A stretch of DNA of 45,650 bases from IMG/VR virus record IMGVR_UViG_3300020613_000010, one strand, 5' to 3'. Below, piece after piece: positions 1,862 through 24,622 of the stretch. Each line of letters begins with the position of its first letter. Position 1 is the stretch's first letter. This DNA is from a virus. A model generated the notes under the pieces. That model made no database searches and was not told where the DNA came from. It saw only the letters and a program-made list of their open reading frames with translations. Made by a program: the position numbers and the translations under genes.

Positions 1862-2185
1862 ATGAACACCGCAACACACGTCCTCTGGCAGTCCATCCTG
1901 AGAACCATCATTCCCGTCGCGGTTGGCGGCATCCTCGGCTGGTTCGCGTCCGCCGGGATCGAGCCTGACCCAGAGCTGGAGTCCGCCCTTGTCGCGGCCT
2001 TCACCGCCGCCGGGACCGCCATCTACTACGTGGCCGTCCGACTCCTCGAGGTCTACGTGTCCCCCAAGTTCGGATGGCTCCTCGGCCTGGCGAAGTCCCC
2101 CGACGGCTACTCCGAAGGCCCGCCCCCCGTCGGCCAGGCAGACGACGAGGACAACTACGACCCCCGCCACCGCGTCGCTGACTGA
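1862..2185 (+). CDS. Holin (two TM helices, charged C-terminal tail)
   Basis: 107 aa with two hydrophobic helices, then an Asp/Glu/Arg-rich tail. Located immediately downstream of the endolysin. Confidence 0.8.
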   Translation: MNTATHVLWQSILRTIIPVAVGGILGWFASAGIEPDPELESALVAAFTAAGTAIYYVAVRLLEVYVSPKFGWLLGLAKSPDGYSEGPPPVGQADDEDNYDPRHRVAD

Positions 2186-2198
2186 CAAAGCCAAACAG

Positions 2199-2237
2199 AC
2201 AGACTAACAATGCACATTGACAAATGTGCAAGTCTGT
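2199..2237. promoter_or_regulatory. Large imperfect palindrome containing TGCACAT-TGACAA-ATGTGCA (candidate recombinase core site or operator)
   Basis: ACAGACT..TGCACATTGACAAATGTGCA..AGTCTGT. The inner 20-bp perfect palindrome is at 2211-2230. A TTGACA hexamer lies in its centre. Confidence 0.55.
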
Positions 2238-2384
2238 CATGCTGCCCCGACGTGTGATACACTGGCACCACGAGACCGCCCAAGCCTCTCCACGATGCTC
2301 AAATGCGGCGCGCAGGACGACCGGAACTGATCAACCGGAGACGCCTGCGGTGAGGCCCGGCGACCGTCATGCCCCGGGAAAACG

Positions 2385-3029: not shown

Positions 3030-3066
3030 CGTGTCTCTCCTTGGGTGGTACTTCGGTGGCGTCTCC

Positions 3067-3095
3067 ACTCTAGCGCGCGGTCCACGGCAAGTGAA
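3067..3095 (-). promoter_or_regulatory. Candidate promoter for the reverse gene (TTCACT-17-TAGAGT)
   Basis: Hexamers read on the minus strand with 17-nt spacing, about 35 nt upstream of the ATG at 3029. Confidence 0.3.
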
Positions 3096-3109
3096 GACTA
3101 ATACGGCGA

Positions 3110-3140
3110 ATGCCACAACGGCATGATTCTGCGGTACGAT
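3110..3140 (+). promoter_or_regulatory. Inverted repeat ATGCC-N5-GGCAT followed by a -10-like TACGAT 7 nt before the ATG at 3148 (possible leaderless promoter and operator)
   Basis: IR at 3110-3124 and TACGAT at 3135-3140. No properly spaced SD precedes 3148. Confidence 0.35.
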
Positions 3141-3147
3141 CAGGGGC

Positions 3148-3405
3148 ATGACTACACACACCGACCCCAACGTCCAGATCATCGAGAACGCCCGCCCGGA
3201 AGACGTGCGGCCCGGCGACCACATCGTCTGGGAGCACACCGAGACGTTCCGCGGCGTGACCCGCACCGTCCGCCGCGAAGGTATCGCTCATCACCGCGAA
3301 CAACTACTAGACGACTGGGTGACCGGCGACGATGGGCTCATCACGGACGGCGAGGGCGAGGACATCACCCTCACGATCCGCCGCCCGATCACGAAGGAGG
3401 GCTGA
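3148..3405 (+). CDS. Hypothetical protein, paralog of 11932..12174
   Basis: Shares VQ(I/V)IENA..DVR(P/S)GDH.., EGIAHH and a ..LTIRRPITKE(G/N) C-terminus with the second copy. Confidence 0.8.
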   Translation: MTTHTDPNVQIIENARPEDVRPGDHIVWEHTETFRGVTRTVRREGIAHHREQLLDDWVTGDDGLITDGEGEDITLTIRRPITKEG

Positions 3406-3412
3406 CCGATGA
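3366..3412 (+). repeat. 47-nt direct repeat (44/47 identical) with 12135..12181
   Basis: CACCCTCACGATCCGCCGCCCGATCAC (27 nt, perfect) plus AAGGAG..CTGACCGATGA. It covers the gene end, the RBS and the start of the next gene in both copies. Confidence 0.9.
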
Positions 3413-5241
3413 GCGCCCACGTCATCCACGCCGACTGCCTCACCGCCCTCCGCGACATGCCCGACGCCTCCGTGGACGCCGTTGTCACGGACCCGCCCTA
3501 CGGCCTGTCCAACACCACCCCCGCGCAGGTCGCGGACACCATCACCCGCTGGGTGTCCGGTGACCGCGAGTACCTGCCTTCAGCAAGGGGCTTCATGGGC
3601 CACGAGTGGGATGGCTTCGTTCCCCCGGTCGCCGTGTGGGATGAGTGCATGCGCGTGTTGAAGCCGGGCGGGCACCTGCTCGCGTTCGCCGGGTCCCGCA
3701 CCCAGGACCTCATGGGCCTCGCCGTGCGGCTTGCCGGCTTCGAGATCCGCGACTCCGTGGCGTGGCTCTACGGGTCCGGCTTCCCCAAGTCTATGGACGT
3801 GTCCAAGGCGATTGACAAGCTCAACGGGCGGAAGTTTGAGGACCGCTACGCCCTCGGACGGCACATCCGAGAGCGGCGTATTGCACTCGGACTCACCCCG
3901 GCAGACGTGAACGCGTGGTTCGGGTACAAGGACGGGTGCCAGCACTGGGAGAGGCAGGACCCATCCGGTGCTCGCGTGCCCACCCTGGCCGACTGGGCGG
4001 TCCTCAAGCCTCGGCTTGGGCTGTCGGACGAACACCTTGCCCTCGTGGAGCGGGTGGAAGCGGAGCGCGAGATTGTTGGGCAACGCGACGTGCCTGTGGG
4101 CCACGCATTCGCCGGGGTCACCTATGGAGGTGACTCCGCGAACAAGACCGTATCGATCACCGCTTCCCGCTCGGACGAGGGCAAGCAGTGGGAGGGTTGG
4201 GGGACCGCGCTCAAGCCCGCATTTGAGCCGGTCACCCTGGCCCGTAAGCCCTTCCGTGGCACGTTGGCCGCTAACGTCCTGGAGTACGGGACCGGGGCGC
4301 TGAACATTGATGCAACGAGGATCAGCGCCTCCACTTCTCCGGGTGCGTCTCGTAGTAGTCGCGGTGGTAGCACTTCCGGCACATCCCCCGAGCGCGGAGG
4401 CGGCCAAACGCCCCGCACCGCGAGCACTCCGCTTCCGGCTTTGTCTGCATCTTCACGCGAGGATCGTAATGACCCTCCTGCCAGTGATGACGGAGGTGTG
4501 ACGAGTTGTCCACGACTTCCAGGTTCTCGGGCCGATTGTCCGTCTTCACCTTGTTCTTGTGATGAACATGCTCATTCGGCTTCAGCGGGCGTCCGAGCAT
4601 CTGCTCAGCCACGAGCCGATGCTCTCGGACCTGACGCCCTTCGTGGAGAAGGGAAATGTAACCAGAGGAATCAATCCATGCCATTCTCTAATGGTACAGC
4701 ACCCCATGTTGAAAATAAAGGCCGCTGGCCCGCGAACGTGGTGCTGGACGAGTCCCAGTCCGCCGAACTTGACCGGCAATCGGGAATCACCCGAAGCAGT
4801 GTCCGCAAGCCGACAGGCAAGGATGAGCGCGGTGTCTCCGACACCGCATCACGCATGACTATCCGCCGGAAGGACTCCGTGCAGCGCGGAGTTTCCGACT
4901 CCGGCGGCGCGTCCCGGTTCTTCTACGTAGCGAAGGCCCCGAAGTCTGAGCGGCCCGTGGTGGACGGCACCGCACACCCCACCGTGAAGCCCATCGCCCT
5001 CATGCGGTGGCTGGTCCGCATGGTCACCCCGCCCGGCGGGACCGTGCTGGACCCGTTCGCGGGGTCGGGGACCACCCTGGAAGCGGCCATGCTGGAAGGC
5101 TTCAACGTGACCGGGATCGAACGGGAGGCTGACTACCTGCCACTCATCCAGGCGCGTATCGACCGGGTCACCGCTGAACTGGCGGCGCGGGCCGAGGCTG
5201 AGGGCGACACGCTGTTCCCCATCGACGGGGCAGCGTCGTGA
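3409..5241 (+). CDS. Beta-class N6-adenine/N4-cytosine DNA methyltransferase with an approximately 125-aa low-complexity insertion
   Basis: RBS AAGGAGG. DPPY at aa 28-31, GTGALNIDATRI, GRWPANVVLD, and the AdoMet motif VLDPFAGSGTT near the C-terminus. Codons about 305-435 are Ser/Pro/Arg/Gly-rich and lie antisense to the HNH gene. Confidence 0.85.
   Translation: MSAHVIHADCLTALRDMPDASVDAVVTDPPYGLSNTTPAQVADTITRWVSGDREYLPSARGFMGHEWDGFVPPVAVWDECMRVLKPGGHLLAFAGSRTQDLMGLAVRLAGFEIRDSVAWLYGSGFPKSMDVSKAIDKLNGRKFEDRYALGRHIRERRIALGLTPADVNAWFGYKDGCQHWERQDPSGARVPTLADWAVLKPRLGLSDEHLALVERVEAEREIVGQRDVPVGHAFAGVTYGGDSANKTVSITASRSDEGKQWEGWGTALKPAFEPVTLARKPFRGTLAANVLEYGTGALNIDATRISASTSPGASRSSRGGSTSGTSPERGGGQTPRTASTPLPALSASSREDRNDPPASDDGGVTSCPRLPGSRADCPSSPCSCDEHAHSASAGVRASAQPRADALGPDALRGEGKCNQRNQSMPFSNGTAPHVENKGRWPANVVLDESQSAELDRQSGITRSSVRKPTGKDERGVSDTASRMTIRRKDSVQRGVSDSGGASRFFYVAKAPKSERPVVDGTAHPTVKPIALMRWLVRMVTPPGGTVLDPFAGSGTTLEAAMLEGFNVTGIEREADYLPLIQARIDRVTAELAARAEAEGDTLFPIDGAAS
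4322..4684 (-). CDS. HNH homing-type endonuclease nested antisense inside the methylase ORF
   Basis: 120 aa: GYISLL..EHRLVAEQMLGRPLKPNEHVHHKNKVKTDNRPENLEVVDNSSHLRHH plus C-terminal CSRCG..GMCRKCYH. The local GC content drops at its 5' end. Confidence 0.85.
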   Translation of the reverse strand: MAWIDSSGYISLLHEGRQVREHRLVAEQMLGRPLKPNEHVHHKNKVKTDNRPENLEVVDNSSHLRHHWQEGHYDPRVKMQTKPEAECSRCGAFGRLRARGMCRKCYHRDYYETHPEKWRR

Positions 5242-23553: not shown

Positions 23554-24622
23554 TGCTCGCGTTGGTGTTGTCGATTTCCCAACGCTAGGCGACCTGCTGG
23601 ACGCCTGGTATGAGCAGCATTGCACGATCCCGAACAAGCTGGGTCAGCGCGTCCCGTTTCGTCAGTCTGACTGGCAGTTTTGGTGCTCGGCGAATCACTA
23701 TCGCGTTAAGGAGTCCGCGAAGTGGGACCCGGAGTCGCCGCTTATGGCGCAGGCGTTCGTGTATCGCCGGTCGATGGTTGTTGCGCCGCAGAAGACGGGT
23801 AAGGGTCCGTGGTCTGCTGCTGTGACTGCTGGCGAGGCGGTCGGCCCGGTGATGTTCGCTGGCTGGGCGAAGGCTGGTGACGCGTATCGCTGTGCCGATA
23901 ATGGCTGCTCGTGCGGTTGGGAGTTCTATTATGAGCCTGGGGAGGCGATGGGGCGTCGTCGCCCCGGGCCGTTGATCCAGCTGCTTGCAACGTCGGAGGA
24001 GCAGGCGGCGAATGTCTACGGGCCGCTTTCCACGATCATCATGGATGGCCCTCTGACGCGGCTTATGGCGACTCGTGAGGGCTTCATTCGCATTCTTGAT
24101 GGGGATGGTGGCCCGAAGTCGAATCGTATCGACGTTGTCTCGTCTTCCGCCCGTTCTCGACTCGGCAACCCGATCACGTTCGCGGTCCAGGACGAGGTCG
24201 GGCTGTATACGGTGCAGAACAAGATGATCGAGGTGGCGAACGCTCAGCGTCGCGGTCTCGCGGGTATGGGTGGTCGCTCGATTGCGACGACGAATGCGTG
24301 GAATCCGGCTGAGAACTCGGATGCGCAGCGCACGTTTGAGGGCAACCATAAGGACGTGTTCACGTTCTATCGTCAGCCCCCTGCGGACTTGTCCTACACG
24401 AACAAGCGGGAGCGTCGGAAGATCCATGCTTTCGCCTATGCGGGGTCACCGTGGGTTGATCTGGATGACATCGAGGGCATGGCGGCCGAGCTGATGGCGA
24501 ATGACCCGGCTGAGGCCGAGAGGTTCTACGGTAACCGGCTTGTGTCGGGTTCCGGTGCGTGGCTTCGAGACGGGGTGTGGGATGCAGCTTACGCAGGTCG
24601 AGTGGTTGCCGAGTCCCCCTGA
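23543..24622 (+). CDS. terL: Terminase large subunit, N-terminal ATPase part (frame ends at TGA 24620-24622)
   Basis: Walker A VVAPQKTGKGPW and Walker B-like ITFAVQDEVG. The start could be TTG 23537, ATG 23543 or GTG 23546. Confidence 0.85.
   Translation: MVHSARVGVVDFPTLGDLLDAWYEQHCTIPNKLGQRVPFRQSDWQFWCSANHYRVKESAKWDPESPLMAQAFVYRRSMVVAPQKTGKGPWSAAVTAGEAVGPVMFAGWAKAGDAYRCADNGCSCGWEFYYEPGEAMGRRRPGPLIQLLATSEEQAANVYGPLSTIIMDGPLTRLMATREGFIRILDGDGGPKSNRIDVVSSSARSRLGNPITFAVQDEVGLYTVQNKMIEVANAQRRGLAGMGGRSIATTNAWNPAENSDAQRTFEGNHKDVFTFYRQPPADLSYTNKRERRKIHAFAYAGSPWVDLDDIEGMAAELMANDPAEAERFYGNRLVSGSGAWLRDGVWDAAYAGRVVAESP

What the first reader, a model, noticed from the sequence alone, without database searches (positions are those of the whole stretch)
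4300..4725. HNH homing-type endonuclease gene nested antisense inside a DNA methyltransferase ORF that stays open
The 610-codon beta-class methylase ORF (DPPY at aa 28-31, DPFAGSGTT near the C-terminus) has no stop codon. Between its conserved GTGALNIDATRI block (ends at 4321) and the GRWPANVVLD block (starts at 4720) it translates into about 125 aa of Ser/Pro/Arg/Gly low-complexity sequence.

That same segment on the opposite strand encodes a well-formed 120-aa HNH endonuclease (4684 to 4322) with EHRLVAEQMLGRPL, HVHHKN, DNRPENLEVV, SSHLRHH and a C-terminal CxxC..CxxC.
- The HNH stop codon (4322-4324) abuts the last conserved methylase codon.
- GC content visibly drops at 4560-4720.
- An in-frame + strand ATG (4678-4680) lies 1 nt from the HNH start (4684-4682).

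This looks like a free-standing homing endonuclease inserted precisely into a permissive loop of its host gene in reverse orientation. The host gene may tolerate it as an in-frame linker, or it may be expressed as two halves. Phage genes are known to be split by free-standing homing endonucleases (for example nrdA in a T4-like Aeromonas phage). I do not know of a described case of an antisense, frame-preserving insertion in a methylase.
Basis: partly seen in the sequence, partly recalled or inferred. Interest (0 to 1): 0.82.

Follow-up and report, generated by a model that had tools for sequence, protein, structure and literature searches.

The report
Antisense HNH gene hidden in methylase
A tiny selfish homing-endonuclease gene, apparently with its own promoter, sits backwards inside a loop of a phage DNA methylase gene and never puts a stop codon into the methylase reading frame; it is an antisense, new-site variant of the "hidden HNH / ShiLan domain" insertions first described in 2025.

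Summary
The 610-codon beta-class methylase ORF (3409-5241, +) is open. Codons 306-437 (4324-4719) are an insertion whose opposite strand encodes a 120-aa HNH_3 endonuclease (4684-4322).

Close methylase homologues have an empty site: NIDATRI-GGPP-GRWPANV. The same cassette sits at the same site, antisense, in about 18 distinct loci, including Mycobacterium phage MKC-IRE-02, where it is unannotated.

- **HNH frame:** under purifying selection (dN/dS 0.08-0.31).
- **Methylase frame across the insert:** no amino-acid constraint (apparent omega above 1), yet zero stops in every copy, including genomes of 35-46% GC. For free-standing relatives the same frame is stop-free in 10 of 72 loci (Fisher p = 3e-12).
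- **Splicing:** no intron or intein signal.
- **Expression signal:** TANNNT-N6-ATG is conserved upstream of the HNH start (TTGACT-17-TATAAT-6-ATG in one relative). This suggests a dedicated antisense promoter giving a leaderless mRNA.

Best reading: a mobile, read-through HNH cassette that the methylase tolerates as a disordered loop.

The kind is already published for same-strand, out-of-frame HNHs in this methylase family (Arsenault et al. 2025). I did not find the antisense orientation, this site or this promoter architecture described, so I rate it a new variant of a known kind.

The parts
3409..5241 (+). Host gene: 610-aa beta-class N6/N4 DNA methyltransferase ORF, open from ATG to TGA through the insert.
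   Evidence: ORF list. PF01555 E=1e-27 and phrog_67 E=5e-70. The AF2 core matches CcrM, M.BceJIV and RsrI.
3490..3501 (+). Motif IV, DPPY (aa 28-31), the catalytic motif of the methylase.
   Evidence: Invariant D28 P29 P30 Y31 in 65 homologues.
4294..4323 (+). Left flank of the insertion site: codons G296-I305 (GALNIDATRI), one of the most conserved blocks of the family and the presumed half of the homing target.
   Evidence: Invariant or near-invariant columns. Junction comparison with empty alleles L101 and L103.
4324..4719 (-). Inserted cassette: 396 nt, codons 306-437 of the methylase frame. It replaces 12 nt (GGCGGACCGCCT) of the empty allele, a net gain of 384 nt or 128 codons. In the methylase frame it reads as a Ser/Pro/Arg/Gly-rich peptide.
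   Evidence: Empty versus occupied junctions. No Pfam family in the + frame. pLDDT is about 30 with no secondary structure over residues 305-444. The insert is 95.5% identical to the L098 copy, while the alignable flanking segments of the host gene are 83-88% identical.
4322..4684 (-). HNH homing-type endonuclease ORF, 120 aa plus a TGA stop that overlaps the host Ile305 codon. It carries the HNH core (H41/H42, N54, H63) and a C-terminal CxxC...CxxC.
   Evidence: PF13392 E=2e-12. Clade alignment with invariant H, N and C residues. dN/dS 0.08-0.31. AF2 pLDDT 88, top PDB hit I-HmuI 1u3e.
4691..4696 (-). -10-like hexamer TACCAT (TANNNT), exactly 6 nt upstream of the HNH ATG. This is the geometry of an actinobacterial leaderless transcript.
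   Evidence: TANNNT-N6-ATG is kept in all ten copies aligned, although the 6-nt gap varies. L019 has TTGACT-17-TATAAT-6-ATG, matching 11 of 12 consensus positions. The generic sigma-70 scan does not call a promoter in the window itself.
4697..4713 (-). Conserved 17-nt block TTCAACATGGGGTGCTG, lying in the position of the promoter spacer. Its function is unknown; it may be an operator or a promoter element.
   Evidence: It is conserved in all copies of the 120-aa clade aligned, and in L019 and L020.
4714..4719 (-). Hexamer TTTATT at the -35 position, a weak match, directly abutting the host Gly438 codon. This is the right end of the cassette.
   Evidence: Read from the sequence. L019 has TTGACT at the equivalent position.
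4720..4740 (+). Right flank: codons G438-V444 (GRWPANV), a conserved methylase block.
   Evidence: Invariant G438 R439 P441 N443. Junctions.
5050..5076 (+). Motif I, DPFAGSGTT (aa 548-556), the SAM-binding motif. It is intact downstream of the insert and in frame.
   Evidence: Invariant P549 F550 G552 S553 G554 T556. PDB profile alignments.

Best explanation
The segment 4324-4719 is a minimal mobile cassette. It consists of a weak -35, a conserved spacer, a TANNNT -10, a leaderless ATG and a 120-aa HNH endonuclease. It has homed, in reverse orientation, into the conserved GALNIDATRI | GRWPANV junction of a phage orphan beta-class DNA methylase.

The cassette is not spliced out at the RNA or the protein level. 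Its sequence is instead constrained so that the host reading frame contains no stop codon and stays in phase (+128 codons). The methylase is therefore translated straight through, and the antisense read-out forms a disordered surface loop at a site where loop length is naturally variable.

The endonuclease would be made from its own antisense transcript. It presumably cuts insert-free alleles during co-infection or in a prophage state, so that repair copies the cassette in.

- **Shown:** the insertion and the empty site; that the HNH is a conserved, selected protein; stop avoidance in the host frame; patchy distribution, with the cassette more conserved than its host gene.
- **Inferred:** promoter use and a leaderless mRNA; methylase activity with the loop; endonuclease cleavage specificity and homing.
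For: 1. **Empty and occupied alleles.** They differ by exactly the cassette, at nucleotide resolution.
2. **Recurrence at one site.** The same cassette lies antisense at the same site and in the same relative frame in about 18 distinct loci. Their methylases are only 40-60% identical to this one. They include Mycobacterium phage MKC-IRE-02 and IMG/VR, JGI, ENA and Logan contigs.
3. **Mobility signature.** Window versus L098: the insert is 95.5% identical, the flanking segments 83-88%. The closest methylase, L101 (89-95% identical over the N-terminal 256 codons), lacks the insert.
4. **Selection on the HNH frame.** dN/dS is 0.08-0.31 with pS of 0.52-0.77 between diverged copies. Variable columns by codon position are 49, 44 and 97 of 120. 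The methylase frame across the insert shows apparent omega of 1.25-3.5 but no stops. The other two antisense frames carry stops in most copies, about 10 per copy in one of them.
5. **Stop avoidance.** Synonymous shuffles expect 1.6-5 stops per copy, with P(0) between 0.13 and below 0.001. The lowest values are in genomes of 35-46% GC. Natural control: 18 of 18 nested copies are stop-free against 10 of 72 free-standing relatives, p = 3.5e-12.
6. **No RNA structure.** Rfam gives no intron match. RNAalifold gives no conserved structure: -19.5 kcal/mol over 560 columns, covariation term +1.3. The + frame peptide has no Pfam domain.
7. **Permissive loop.** AF2 gives pLDDT around 30 with no secondary structure for residues 305-444, between confidently folded core segments. 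Natural loop length at this site ranges from 6 to 74 aa in homologues.
8. **Promoter-like signal.** TANNNT-N6-ATG is conserved in every copy aligned, and L019 has a near-consensus promoter.
9. **Homing-endonuclease fold.** The best structural match of the HNH model is I-HmuI.
10. **Published precedent.** Same-strand out-of-frame HNHs occur in the same methylase family (PMC11855218).
Against: - There are no expression data. The generic sigma-70 scan finds no promoter in the window's own copy, because its -35 is weak.
- For the window alone, the open frame has P of only 0.04-0.09.
- The copies are related by descent, so the multiplied or Fisher probabilities overstate independence.
- Activity of the methylase with a 132-residue loop is untested. 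The insertion lies in the family-specific middle region, probably target-recognising, which does not align to solved structures. It could therefore impair function.
- The open frame could be maintained for translational coupling or to avoid polarity on the overlapping downstream gene (GTGA overlap at 5238-5241), rather than for methylase activity.
- One relative (L108) has a stop elsewhere in the methylase.
Confidence: 0.8

Rival explanations
1. The methylase is effectively dead or dispensable after the insertion. The frame is kept open only because premature termination would uncouple translation and cause polarity on the overlapping downstream gene, or because each copy is a recent arrival in a fresh allele.
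For: The downstream 267-aa tyrosine-recombinase-like ORF starts at 5238 and overlaps the methylase stop. The same gene order is seen in L098 and L106. The cassette is younger than its host allele in the window/L098 pair. L108 carries a stop elsewhere in the methylase. The published paper notes that the methylase is non-essential.
Against: Both halves stay in phase. All catalytic motifs (DPPY, FxGxG, HPTVKP) are intact in every insert-bearing copy aligned. Stop avoidance also holds in loci with different downstream genes, in contigs of very different GC content, and at the other insertion sites. The AF2 core is undisturbed.
Confidence: 0.12
2. The insert is a group I or group II intron carrying an antisense homing-endonuclease gene, and it is removed from the methylase mRNA by splicing.
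For: Phage HNH genes often ride in group I introns (established knowledge; PMC3984707 and PMC3428280 appear). Antisense HEGs in introns are known from nuclear rDNA introns (my own recollection).
Against: Rfam gives no intron hit even at E of 10 or below. In 10 diverged copies RNAalifold finds no conserved fold and the covariation term is positive. Of the 396 nt, 360 are HNH codons and the remaining 36 are the promoter-like region, which leaves no room for a ribozyme core. An intron gives no reason for the universal open, in-phase host frame. The same conclusion was reached for the sister ShiLan element.
Confidence: 0.03
3. The insert is an intein, or an intein remnant, with an antisense-encoded endonuclease, and it is removed by protein splicing.
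For: Related HNH genes do occur antisense inside a genuine intein: the L008 terminase intein, CLAGDQKV...HN|S. Antisense HENs in actinophage inteins are reported in bioRxiv 10.1101/2025.01.02.630785. This methylase family does host an intein at another site (PMC9957025).
Against: The + frame peptide has no Hint or intein domain. It starts with Ser306 and ends ...VENK|G, so it lacks a C-terminal His-Asn and a Cys/Ser/Thr at +1. The 132 residues are entirely accounted for by the HNH antisense sequence and the promoter-like region. The peptide evolves without amino-acid constraint and is predicted to be disordered.
Confidence: 0.02
4. The HNH is not selfish but a domesticated partner of the methylase. 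Possible roles are a nuclease whose antisense transcription regulates methylase dosage, or a restriction-like activity paired with the methylase.
For: Convergent antisense transcription inside the methylase gene must interfere to some degree. The conserved 17-nt block in the promoter spacer suggests regulated expression. The 2025 paper speculates about co-option.
Against: The distribution is patchy. The nearest methylase alleles lack the cassette. The cassette is found in distantly related methylases and is more conserved than the host gene. Different HNH, Vsr-like and LAGLIDADG elements occupy other sites of the same gene. This is the pattern of parasites, not of a fixed partner.
Confidence: 0.03

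Closest known systems
ShiLan domain: the 'hidden' out-of-frame HNH insertion in actinophage DNA methylases (Gosselin et al. 2023, PMC9957025; Arsenault, Gosselin & Gogarten 2025, PMC11855218)
   Same: The host is the same PF01555 methylase family: the Starcevich and Mantra methylases are 53-76% identical to the window's in the flanking blocks. The HNH_3 is related, at 41-47% identity over aa 3-91. The insertion adds no stop codon in the host frame, shows no intron or intein signature, is predicted to form a loop, and has a patchy, horizontally transferred distribution.
   Different: ShiLan is on the same strand, in the third frame, about 202 codons long, encoding a 195-aa HNH with N-terminal zinc fingers. 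It is inserted about 25-35 codons upstream, at the KPAFEPV...ARKP block, with a duplicated flank. The window's element is antisense, 128 net codons, encodes a 120-aa HNH, and lies at the NIDATRI|GRWPANV site. Being antisense, it cannot be translated from the methylase mRNA, so it needs the promoter-like signal found here. For ShiLan, how the HNH is translated was left open.
Inteins whose homing endonuclease is encoded on the antisense strand or out of frame (bioRxiv 10.1101/2025.01.02.630785); also L008 found here
   Same: An endonuclease ORF lies antisense inside an in-frame insertion of a phage gene, and the host frame is kept open.
   Different: Those insertions have Hint splicing domains and are excised from the protein. 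The window's insert has none and must remain in the methylase.
Free-standing HNH and GIY-YIG homing endonuclease genes of T4-like phages (mobE, seg genes), and genes split by them such as Aeromonas phage Aeh1 nrdA (established knowledge; PMC2790892 and PMC2988022 listed)
   Same: A promoter plus an ORF with no intron or intein, mobile by cleavage of a conserved target in a homologous genome, with co-conversion of flanks.
   Different: Those elements sit between genes or split the host gene into two polypeptides. Here the gene is not split but read through, with the HEG on the other strand.
I-HmuI, the HNH nicking homing endonuclease of Bacillus phage SPO1 (PDB 1u3e)
   Same: It is the best structural match of the AF2 model: probability 1.00, TM 0.49 over 121 columns. 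Both belong to the PF13392-type HNH group.
   Different: I-HmuI is intron-encoded and 174 aa long, with a C-terminal helix-turn-helix. The window protein is 120 aa with a CxxC...CxxC tail. Sequence identity is only 21%.

Membership tests
HNH / His-Me finger endonuclease (Pfam PF13392 HNH_3) | Profile match above the curated threshold | tested here: met
   46.9 bits against a cut-off of 24.8, E=2e-12. 15 PHROG HNH families match.
HNH / His-Me finger endonuclease (Pfam PF13392 HNH_3) | Catalytic His...Asn...His/Asn residues conserved, with a beta-beta-alpha-metal fold | tested here: met
   H41, H42, N44, N54, H63 and H67 are invariant in 41 homologues. The AF2 model (pLDDT 88) has strands 38-42 and 55-59 followed by helix 60-70, and matches I-HmuI.
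Homing endonuclease gene (mobile, selfish) | Presence/absence polymorphism at one precise site in a conserved host gene | tested here: met
   Empty alleles L101, L103 and P0060, against occupied alleles in about 18 loci at the same junction.
Homing endonuclease gene (mobile, selfish) | Element history decoupled from host-gene history | tested here: met
   The insert is 95.5% identical where the flanks are 83-88% (window versus L098). The nearest methylase lacks it. The same cassette occurs in methylases only about 50% identical.
Homing endonuclease gene (mobile, selfish) | Site-specific cleavage of the insert-free allele, and gene conversion | not testable with these tools
   This needs purified protein and a co-infection assay.
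ShiLan-type hidden HNH insertion (PMC11855218) | Insertion in a PF01555 phage methylase that adds no stop codon in the host frame and encodes an HNH in another frame | tested here: met
ShiLan-type hidden HNH insertion (PMC11855218) | HNH on the same strand, in the third frame, at the ShiLan insertion site (GTG 18 bp into the insert, ending TAAC) | tested here: not met
   The window's HNH is on the opposite strand and about 25-35 codons downstream of the ShiLan site. It has an ATG start and a TGA stop that overlaps the host Ile305 codon.
Group I / group II intron | Conserved ribozyme core (covariance-model match, conserved helices with covariation) | tested here: not met
   No intron family at E of 10 or below. 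Alifold gives -19.5 kcal/mol over 560 columns with a covariation term of +1.29.
Intein | Hint domain blocks; N-terminal Cys/Ser; C-terminal His-Asn followed by Cys/Ser/Thr | tested here: not met
   No Pfam hit for the + frame insert. It ends ...HVENK|GRW and is predicted to be disordered.
Beta-class N6/N4 DNA methyltransferase (host gene) | Motif IV (DPPY) N-terminal to motif I (FxGxG); PF01555 match; Rossmann-like core | tested here: met
   PDB profile hits to CcrM, RsrI, MboIIA and PvuII. Foldseek hits to CcrM and M.BceJIV.
Beta-class N6/N4 DNA methyltransferase (host gene) | Methyltransferase activity of the insert-bearing protein | not testable with these tools
   This needs a methylome or an enzyme assay.

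The most novel reading that the evidence does not exclude
Read-through 'stealth' insertion may be a general third lifestyle of homing endonuclease genes, alongside introns and inteins. It would work on either strand and in any frame.

In this one methylase family I see hidden endonuclease ORFs at five positions:
- before aa 58 (a Vsr-like ORF);
- in the aa 256-304 segment (the ShiLan site);
- aa 305 (the window's site);
- in the aa 438-457 segment;
- in the aa 504-523 segment.

They lie in the +1, +2 or antisense frame, always with the host frame open, in genomes from 35 to 75% GC.

The antisense form would carry a self-contained promoter for a leaderless mRNA. Its conserved 17-nt spacer block loosely resembles the host ALNIDA target sequence. 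It might act as an operator through which the endonuclease represses itself, as I-TevI does (my own recollection). Antisense transcription might also tune methylase expression. If this is right, many 'low-complexity linkers' in phage proteins would be unannotated endonuclease genes.
Probability: 0.3. Interest if true: 0.8.

Novelty: new variant of a known kind. Interest (0 to 1): 0.6.

Why it matters
- **How HEGs persist in coding genes.** The element shows that a homing endonuclease gene can live inside an essential-looking coding sequence without any splicing machinery. The only requirements are no stop codon in the host frame, an insert length that is a multiple of three, and a tolerant loop. 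It can do this even in reverse orientation.
- **A question the 2025 paper left open.** For the ShiLan elements, how the hidden nuclease is expressed was unresolved. An antisense copy must have its own transcript, and a conserved -10/leaderless arrangement is visible here.
- **Overlapping-gene evolution.** The two frames of one DNA segment are under different regimes: purifying selection on one strand and pure stop avoidance on the other. The contrast is measurable across 35-75% GC.
- **Annotation.** Gene callers report either the methylase or the HNH, never both. GenBank MKC-IRE-02 annotates only the methylase. Such genes are therefore systematically missed, and fused 'long methylases' are mis-described.

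Tried and rejected
- **Megablast against 50,697 phage records.** The methylase gene found only MKC-IRE-02. The two halves of the window found five further records, none informative about the insert. The window is a novel actinophage-like genome.
- **Metagenome DNA scan with the HNH alignment.** The patterns were too generic, so most of the 80 loci were distant free-standing HNHs. I reused them as the natural control.
- **GTDB genome scan.** One distant hit only.
- **Transposon-like ends.** There are no terminal inverted repeats or target duplications around 4324-4719. I rejected an IS or MPME-like element.
- **Intron.** The Rfam scan at permissive E-values and RNAalifold on 10 copies were both negative.
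- **Intein.** No Hint domain and no splice-junction residues.
- **Two-halves expression from the in-frame ATG at 4678 with an upstream AGAGGA.** Both derive from the HNH codons for M-A-W and S-S-G. They are absent in L001, L005 and L018. I rejected this as a conserved feature.
- **Target mimicry.** The conserved promoter-spacer block shares AACATTG...TGC with the host left flank in inverted orientation. The similarity is short and I could not show it exceeds chance, so I leave it as speculation.
- **Generic sigma-70 scan.** It finds no promoter in the window's own copy. The promoter claim rests on cross-copy conservation and on L019.
Full report
**1. The observation**

The window contains a 610-codon ORF on the + strand (3409..5241) and, nested inside it on the - strand, a 120-codon ORF (4684..4322) (sequence).

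The long ORF is a beta-class N6/N4 DNA methyltransferase. It matches PF01555 (E=1e-27) and phrog_67 (E=5e-70), with DPPY at aa 28-31 and DPFAGSGTT at aa 548-556. The short ORF is an HNH_3 endonuclease: PF13392 at 46.9 bits against a curated cut-off of 24.8, plus 15 PHROG HNH families.

The + frame translation of 4321-4719 matches no Pfam family. GC content drops to 0.50-0.56 across the 5' half of the HNH gene and its upstream region.

**2. It is an insertion, and the empty site exists**

A search with the methylase returned thousands of homologues. In the alignment, P0003, P0007 and P0060 read NID..RIGG(PS/PP/D)GRWPANVVLDE. Other homologues have a variable 30-70-aa loop there. P0005, and the methyltransferase of Mycobacterium phage MKC-IRE-02, carry the same roughly 130-codon insert as the window.

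At the DNA level the empty allele reads ...CGC ATC GGC GGA CCG CCT GGC CGT TGG.... The window reads ...AGG ATC | 396 nt | GGC CGC TGG.... The net gain is 384 nt, or 128 codons. The HNH stop codon is the complement of 4322-4324 and overlaps the host Ile305 codon.

There are no terminal repeats or target duplications.

**3. The cassette recurs at the same site, antisense, in many unrelated contigs**

DNA-level searches with the HNH protein do not depend on how anyone called genes. Together with contig look-ups for the HNH clade, they gave about 18 distinct loci. In each, this HNH lies antisense between the NID..R and GRWP blocks of a homologous methylase, always in the same relative frame.

The HNH proteins form a tight clade: 16 database clusters at 63-94% identity, then a drop to 49% or less. 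In GenBank, MKC-IRE-02 annotates only a 517-aa 'methyltransferase' over the region. In the protein collection, the window's 610-aa methylase is present but its HNH is not. Where a gene caller did call the HNH, it broke the methylase into pieces.

**4. Which frame is under selection**

Between diverged copies, the HNH frame has dN/dS of 0.08-0.31 with near-saturated synonymous sites (pS 0.52-0.77). Variable columns by HNH codon position are 49, 44 and 97 of 120.

Read in the methylase frame, the same nucleotides give an apparent omega of 1.25-3.5, so there is no amino-acid constraint, yet there are zero stops in every copy. The other two antisense frames carry stops in most copies, about 10 per copy in one of them.

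The HNH is therefore the protein being conserved. The only visible constraint on the methylase frame is 'no stop, stay in phase'.

**5. Is the open frame more than chance?**

For the window alone, only marginally. Keeping the HNH protein fixed and shuffling or resampling synonymous codons gives about 1.9 expected stops and P(0) of 0.04-0.09.

Across the family it is decisive. Every nested copy has 0 stops where 1.6-5 are expected. This includes contigs at 35% GC (L028/L029, P of 0.001 or less) and 46% GC (L056/L060, P about 0.001-0.009).

As a natural control I used 72 HNH loci not flanked by this methylase. In them the same antisense frame is stop-free in 14% of loci (23% at GC of 0.58 or above). 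Comparing 18 of 18 nested copies with 10 of 72 free-standing ones gives Fisher p = 3.5e-12. The copies are related by descent, so these values overstate independence. Synonymous sites are nonetheless saturated between most of them.

**6. Not an intron, not an intein**

- **Intron.** Rfam finds nothing intron-like, even at E of 10 or below. RNAalifold on ten diverged copies gives -19.5 kcal/mol over 560 columns with a positive covariation term.
- **Space.** The 396 nt are fully used: 360 nt of HNH codons and 36 nt of upstream signal.
- **Intein.** The + frame peptide has no Hint domain and ends ...VENK|G, without the His-Asn plus Cys/Ser/Thr junction.
- **Structure.** AlphaFold2 with a 65-sequence alignment predicts residues 305-444 as structureless (pLDDT around 30). 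They lie between confidently folded core elements that match CcrM, M.BceJIV and RsrI.
- **Natural loop length.** Homologues have from 6 to 74 residues at this position, which marks it as a permissive loop.

**7. How the endonuclease is probably expressed (inferred)**

On the minus strand, every copy aligned keeps TANNNT, then exactly 6 variable nucleotides, then ATG. Examples are:
- window: TACCAT-TAGAGA-ATG
- L001: TACACT-CGACGC-ATG
- L018: TATGCT-GAGGAC-ATG
- L110: TACAAT-GGGGGC-ATG

This motif is preceded by a conserved 17-nt block (TTCAACATGGGGTGCTG in the window) and by a hexamer at the -35 position that abuts the host Gly codon.

In the lower-GC relatives L019 and L020 this region is a near-consensus promoter, TTGACT-17-TATAAT, followed by 6 nt and ATG. 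This is the geometry of a leaderless mRNA, which is common in actinobacteria (established knowledge).

The generic sigma-70 scan does not call the window's own copy, because its -35 is weak. The promoter is therefore an inference from conservation, not a demonstrated fact.

The in-frame + strand ATG at 4678 and its AGAGGA are by-products of the HNH N-terminal codons. They are not conserved. Together with the lack of any stop, this argues against expression as two halves.

**8. Mobility**

Between the window and L098, the cassette is 95.5% identical. The adjoining methylase segments are 83-88% identical, and the variable segments 46-59%. The most similar methylase overall (L101, 89-95% identical over the N-terminal 256 codons) lacks the cassette. 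MKC-IRE-02 carries it in a methylase only 53% identical.

The insertion point lies between two of the most conserved blocks of the family, which is the classic choice of a homing endonuclease. The AF2 model of the HNH (pLDDT 88) finds the homing endonuclease I-HmuI as its only convincing PDB match. Cleavage and gene conversion themselves remain untested.

**9. What is already known**

This methylase family was shown in 2023 to carry three insertion elements: an intein, an in-frame LAGLIDADG domain and the 'ShiLan domain' (PMC9957025).

In 2025 the ShiLan domain was shown to hide a 195-aa HNH in the third frame of the same strand. It adds no stops in the methylase frame, has no intron or intein features and is predicted to form a loop (PMC11855218). 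My loci L002 and L004 (Starcevich, Mantra) are those published cases, and L106 is a metagenomic one.

That paper contains none of the words reverse, antisense, opposite strand or complement, and does not mention MKC-IRE-02. Further searches found no description of an antisense version in a methylase. A 2025 preprint does report antisense LAGLIDADG and VSR-like endonucleases inside actinophage inteins.

The window's element is thus a new variant: opposite strand, different site, smaller, with its own promoter-like signal. It belongs to a recently described kind, not to a new category.

**10. Wider pattern seen on the way**

Close homologues of the window's methylase carry large in-frame insertions in four segments: aa 256-304, 304-438, 438-457 and 504-523. 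The ones I opened each hide an endonuclease ORF in another frame:
- L106: +2 frame, 192 aa.
- L105: +1 frame, 265 aa.
- L104: +2 frame.
- L026, at 37% GC: two nested HNH ORFs inside one open 807-codon methylase.
- L109: an antisense HNH plus an antisense Vsr-like ORF.

Same-strand nested copies are also stop-free in the host frame far more often than free-standing relatives (9 of 9 against 3 of 72, p = 8e-10).

**11. Verdict**

The best explanation is a mobile, antisense, read-through HNH cassette that the methylase tolerates as a disordered loop (confidence about 0.8).

The main residual alternative is that the open frame serves translational coupling or polarity avoidance rather than methylase activity (about 0.12). 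Splicing explanations are very unlikely.

Novelty: new variant of a known kind. Interest: about 0.6.

Noticed in passing
L008:693-3233 (-) and L008:2291-2887 (+): An 846-aa terminase-large-subunit ORF carries a canonical-looking intein (CLAGDQKV ... NYIIDGLPNHN|SGKS). The middle of the intein is low-complexity and encodes, on the opposite strand, a 198-aa HNH of the same HNH_3 family. The preprint on actinophage inteins lists antisense LAGLIDADG and VSR-like HENs, but only in-frame HNHs.
   Followed up: partly
L109:1-1835 (- strand methylase), L109:83-445 (+), L109:813-1481 (+): One methylase ORF, open for 611 codons to the contig end, runs through two antisense nested endonuclease genes. One is the HNH at the window's site. 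The other is a 222-aa DUF559/Vsr-like ORF with zinc-finger repeats, lying between methylase aa 47 and 58.
   Followed up: partly
L026:1566-3989 (+), nested ORFs 2174-2704 and 3044-3448 (+): In a 37% GC contig, an 807-codon methylase ORF stays open across two same-strand, +2-frame HNH ORFs of 176 and 134 aa. The first insert is flanked by a degenerate duplication of the host block (YEPVLTCFKP ... YEPILVAMKP), as reported for ShiLan.
   Followed up: partly
L104:1187-2065, L105:1348-2145, L106:951-1529 (all +, inside methylases P0060, P0006 and P0009): Methylases whose best local match to the window's is 50-85% identical carry other large in-frame inserts, in the aa 504-523, 438-457 and 256-304 segments. 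Each hides an HNH ORF in the +2, +1 and +2 frame respectively. P0060's insert is flanked by a duplicated GGASRFFY / GDSSRFMY.
   Followed up: partly
window:4697-4713 (-) versus window:4297-4312 (+): The conserved 17-nt block in the HNH promoter spacer (TTCAACATGGGGTGCTG; TTCAACATTGGGTGCAG in L018) shares AACATTG..TGC with the host left flank CTGAACATTGATGCA (ALNIDA codons), in inverted orientation. There is also an 8-bp inverted repeat GGCGCTGA/TCAGCGCC at 4296-4303 and 4322-4329. It could be an operator or target mimic, or it could be chance.
   Followed up: partly
L108:3129-3746 and 1878-2357 (-): This insert-bearing methylase has an in-frame stop in the variable region upstream of the HNH cassette, while the frame through the cassette itself is still open. 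It may be a decaying host gene or a sequencing error.
   Followed up: no
L006, L108, L111 (alignment A5, columns 445-540): These copies keep a native loop of about 30-35 aa (e.g. VLGKGLGAGTQ in L006) between the HNH promoter end and GRWP. The cassette therefore lands immediately after the RI codon, whatever the loop type of the recipient allele.
   Followed up: partly
window:5238-6041 (+): A 267-aa tyrosine-recombinase-like ORF starts with a GTG that overlaps the methylase stop (GTGA). The same methylase-to-Phage_integrase order occurs in L098 and L106. This bears on the polarity rival explanation.
   Followed up: partly
window:17800-19250 (+): A second DNA methyltransferase region is about 76% identical over some 270 nt to the DNA methyltransferase of Mycobacterium phages Pukovnik, Jaan and Landor. 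The terminase region 23564-23988 is about 79% identical to Arthrobacter phage Tiff81. Otherwise the window has no close relative among 50,697 phage records.
   Followed up: no
L009, L011, L012, L013 (HNH hits starting at 1092 in L009 and at 2501 in the others): Like L008, these 'free' HNH loci have zero stops in the antisense frame and 0-1 in the same-strand +1 frame. They are probably nested too, perhaps in terminase inteins as in L008. I did not check them individually.
   Followed up: no
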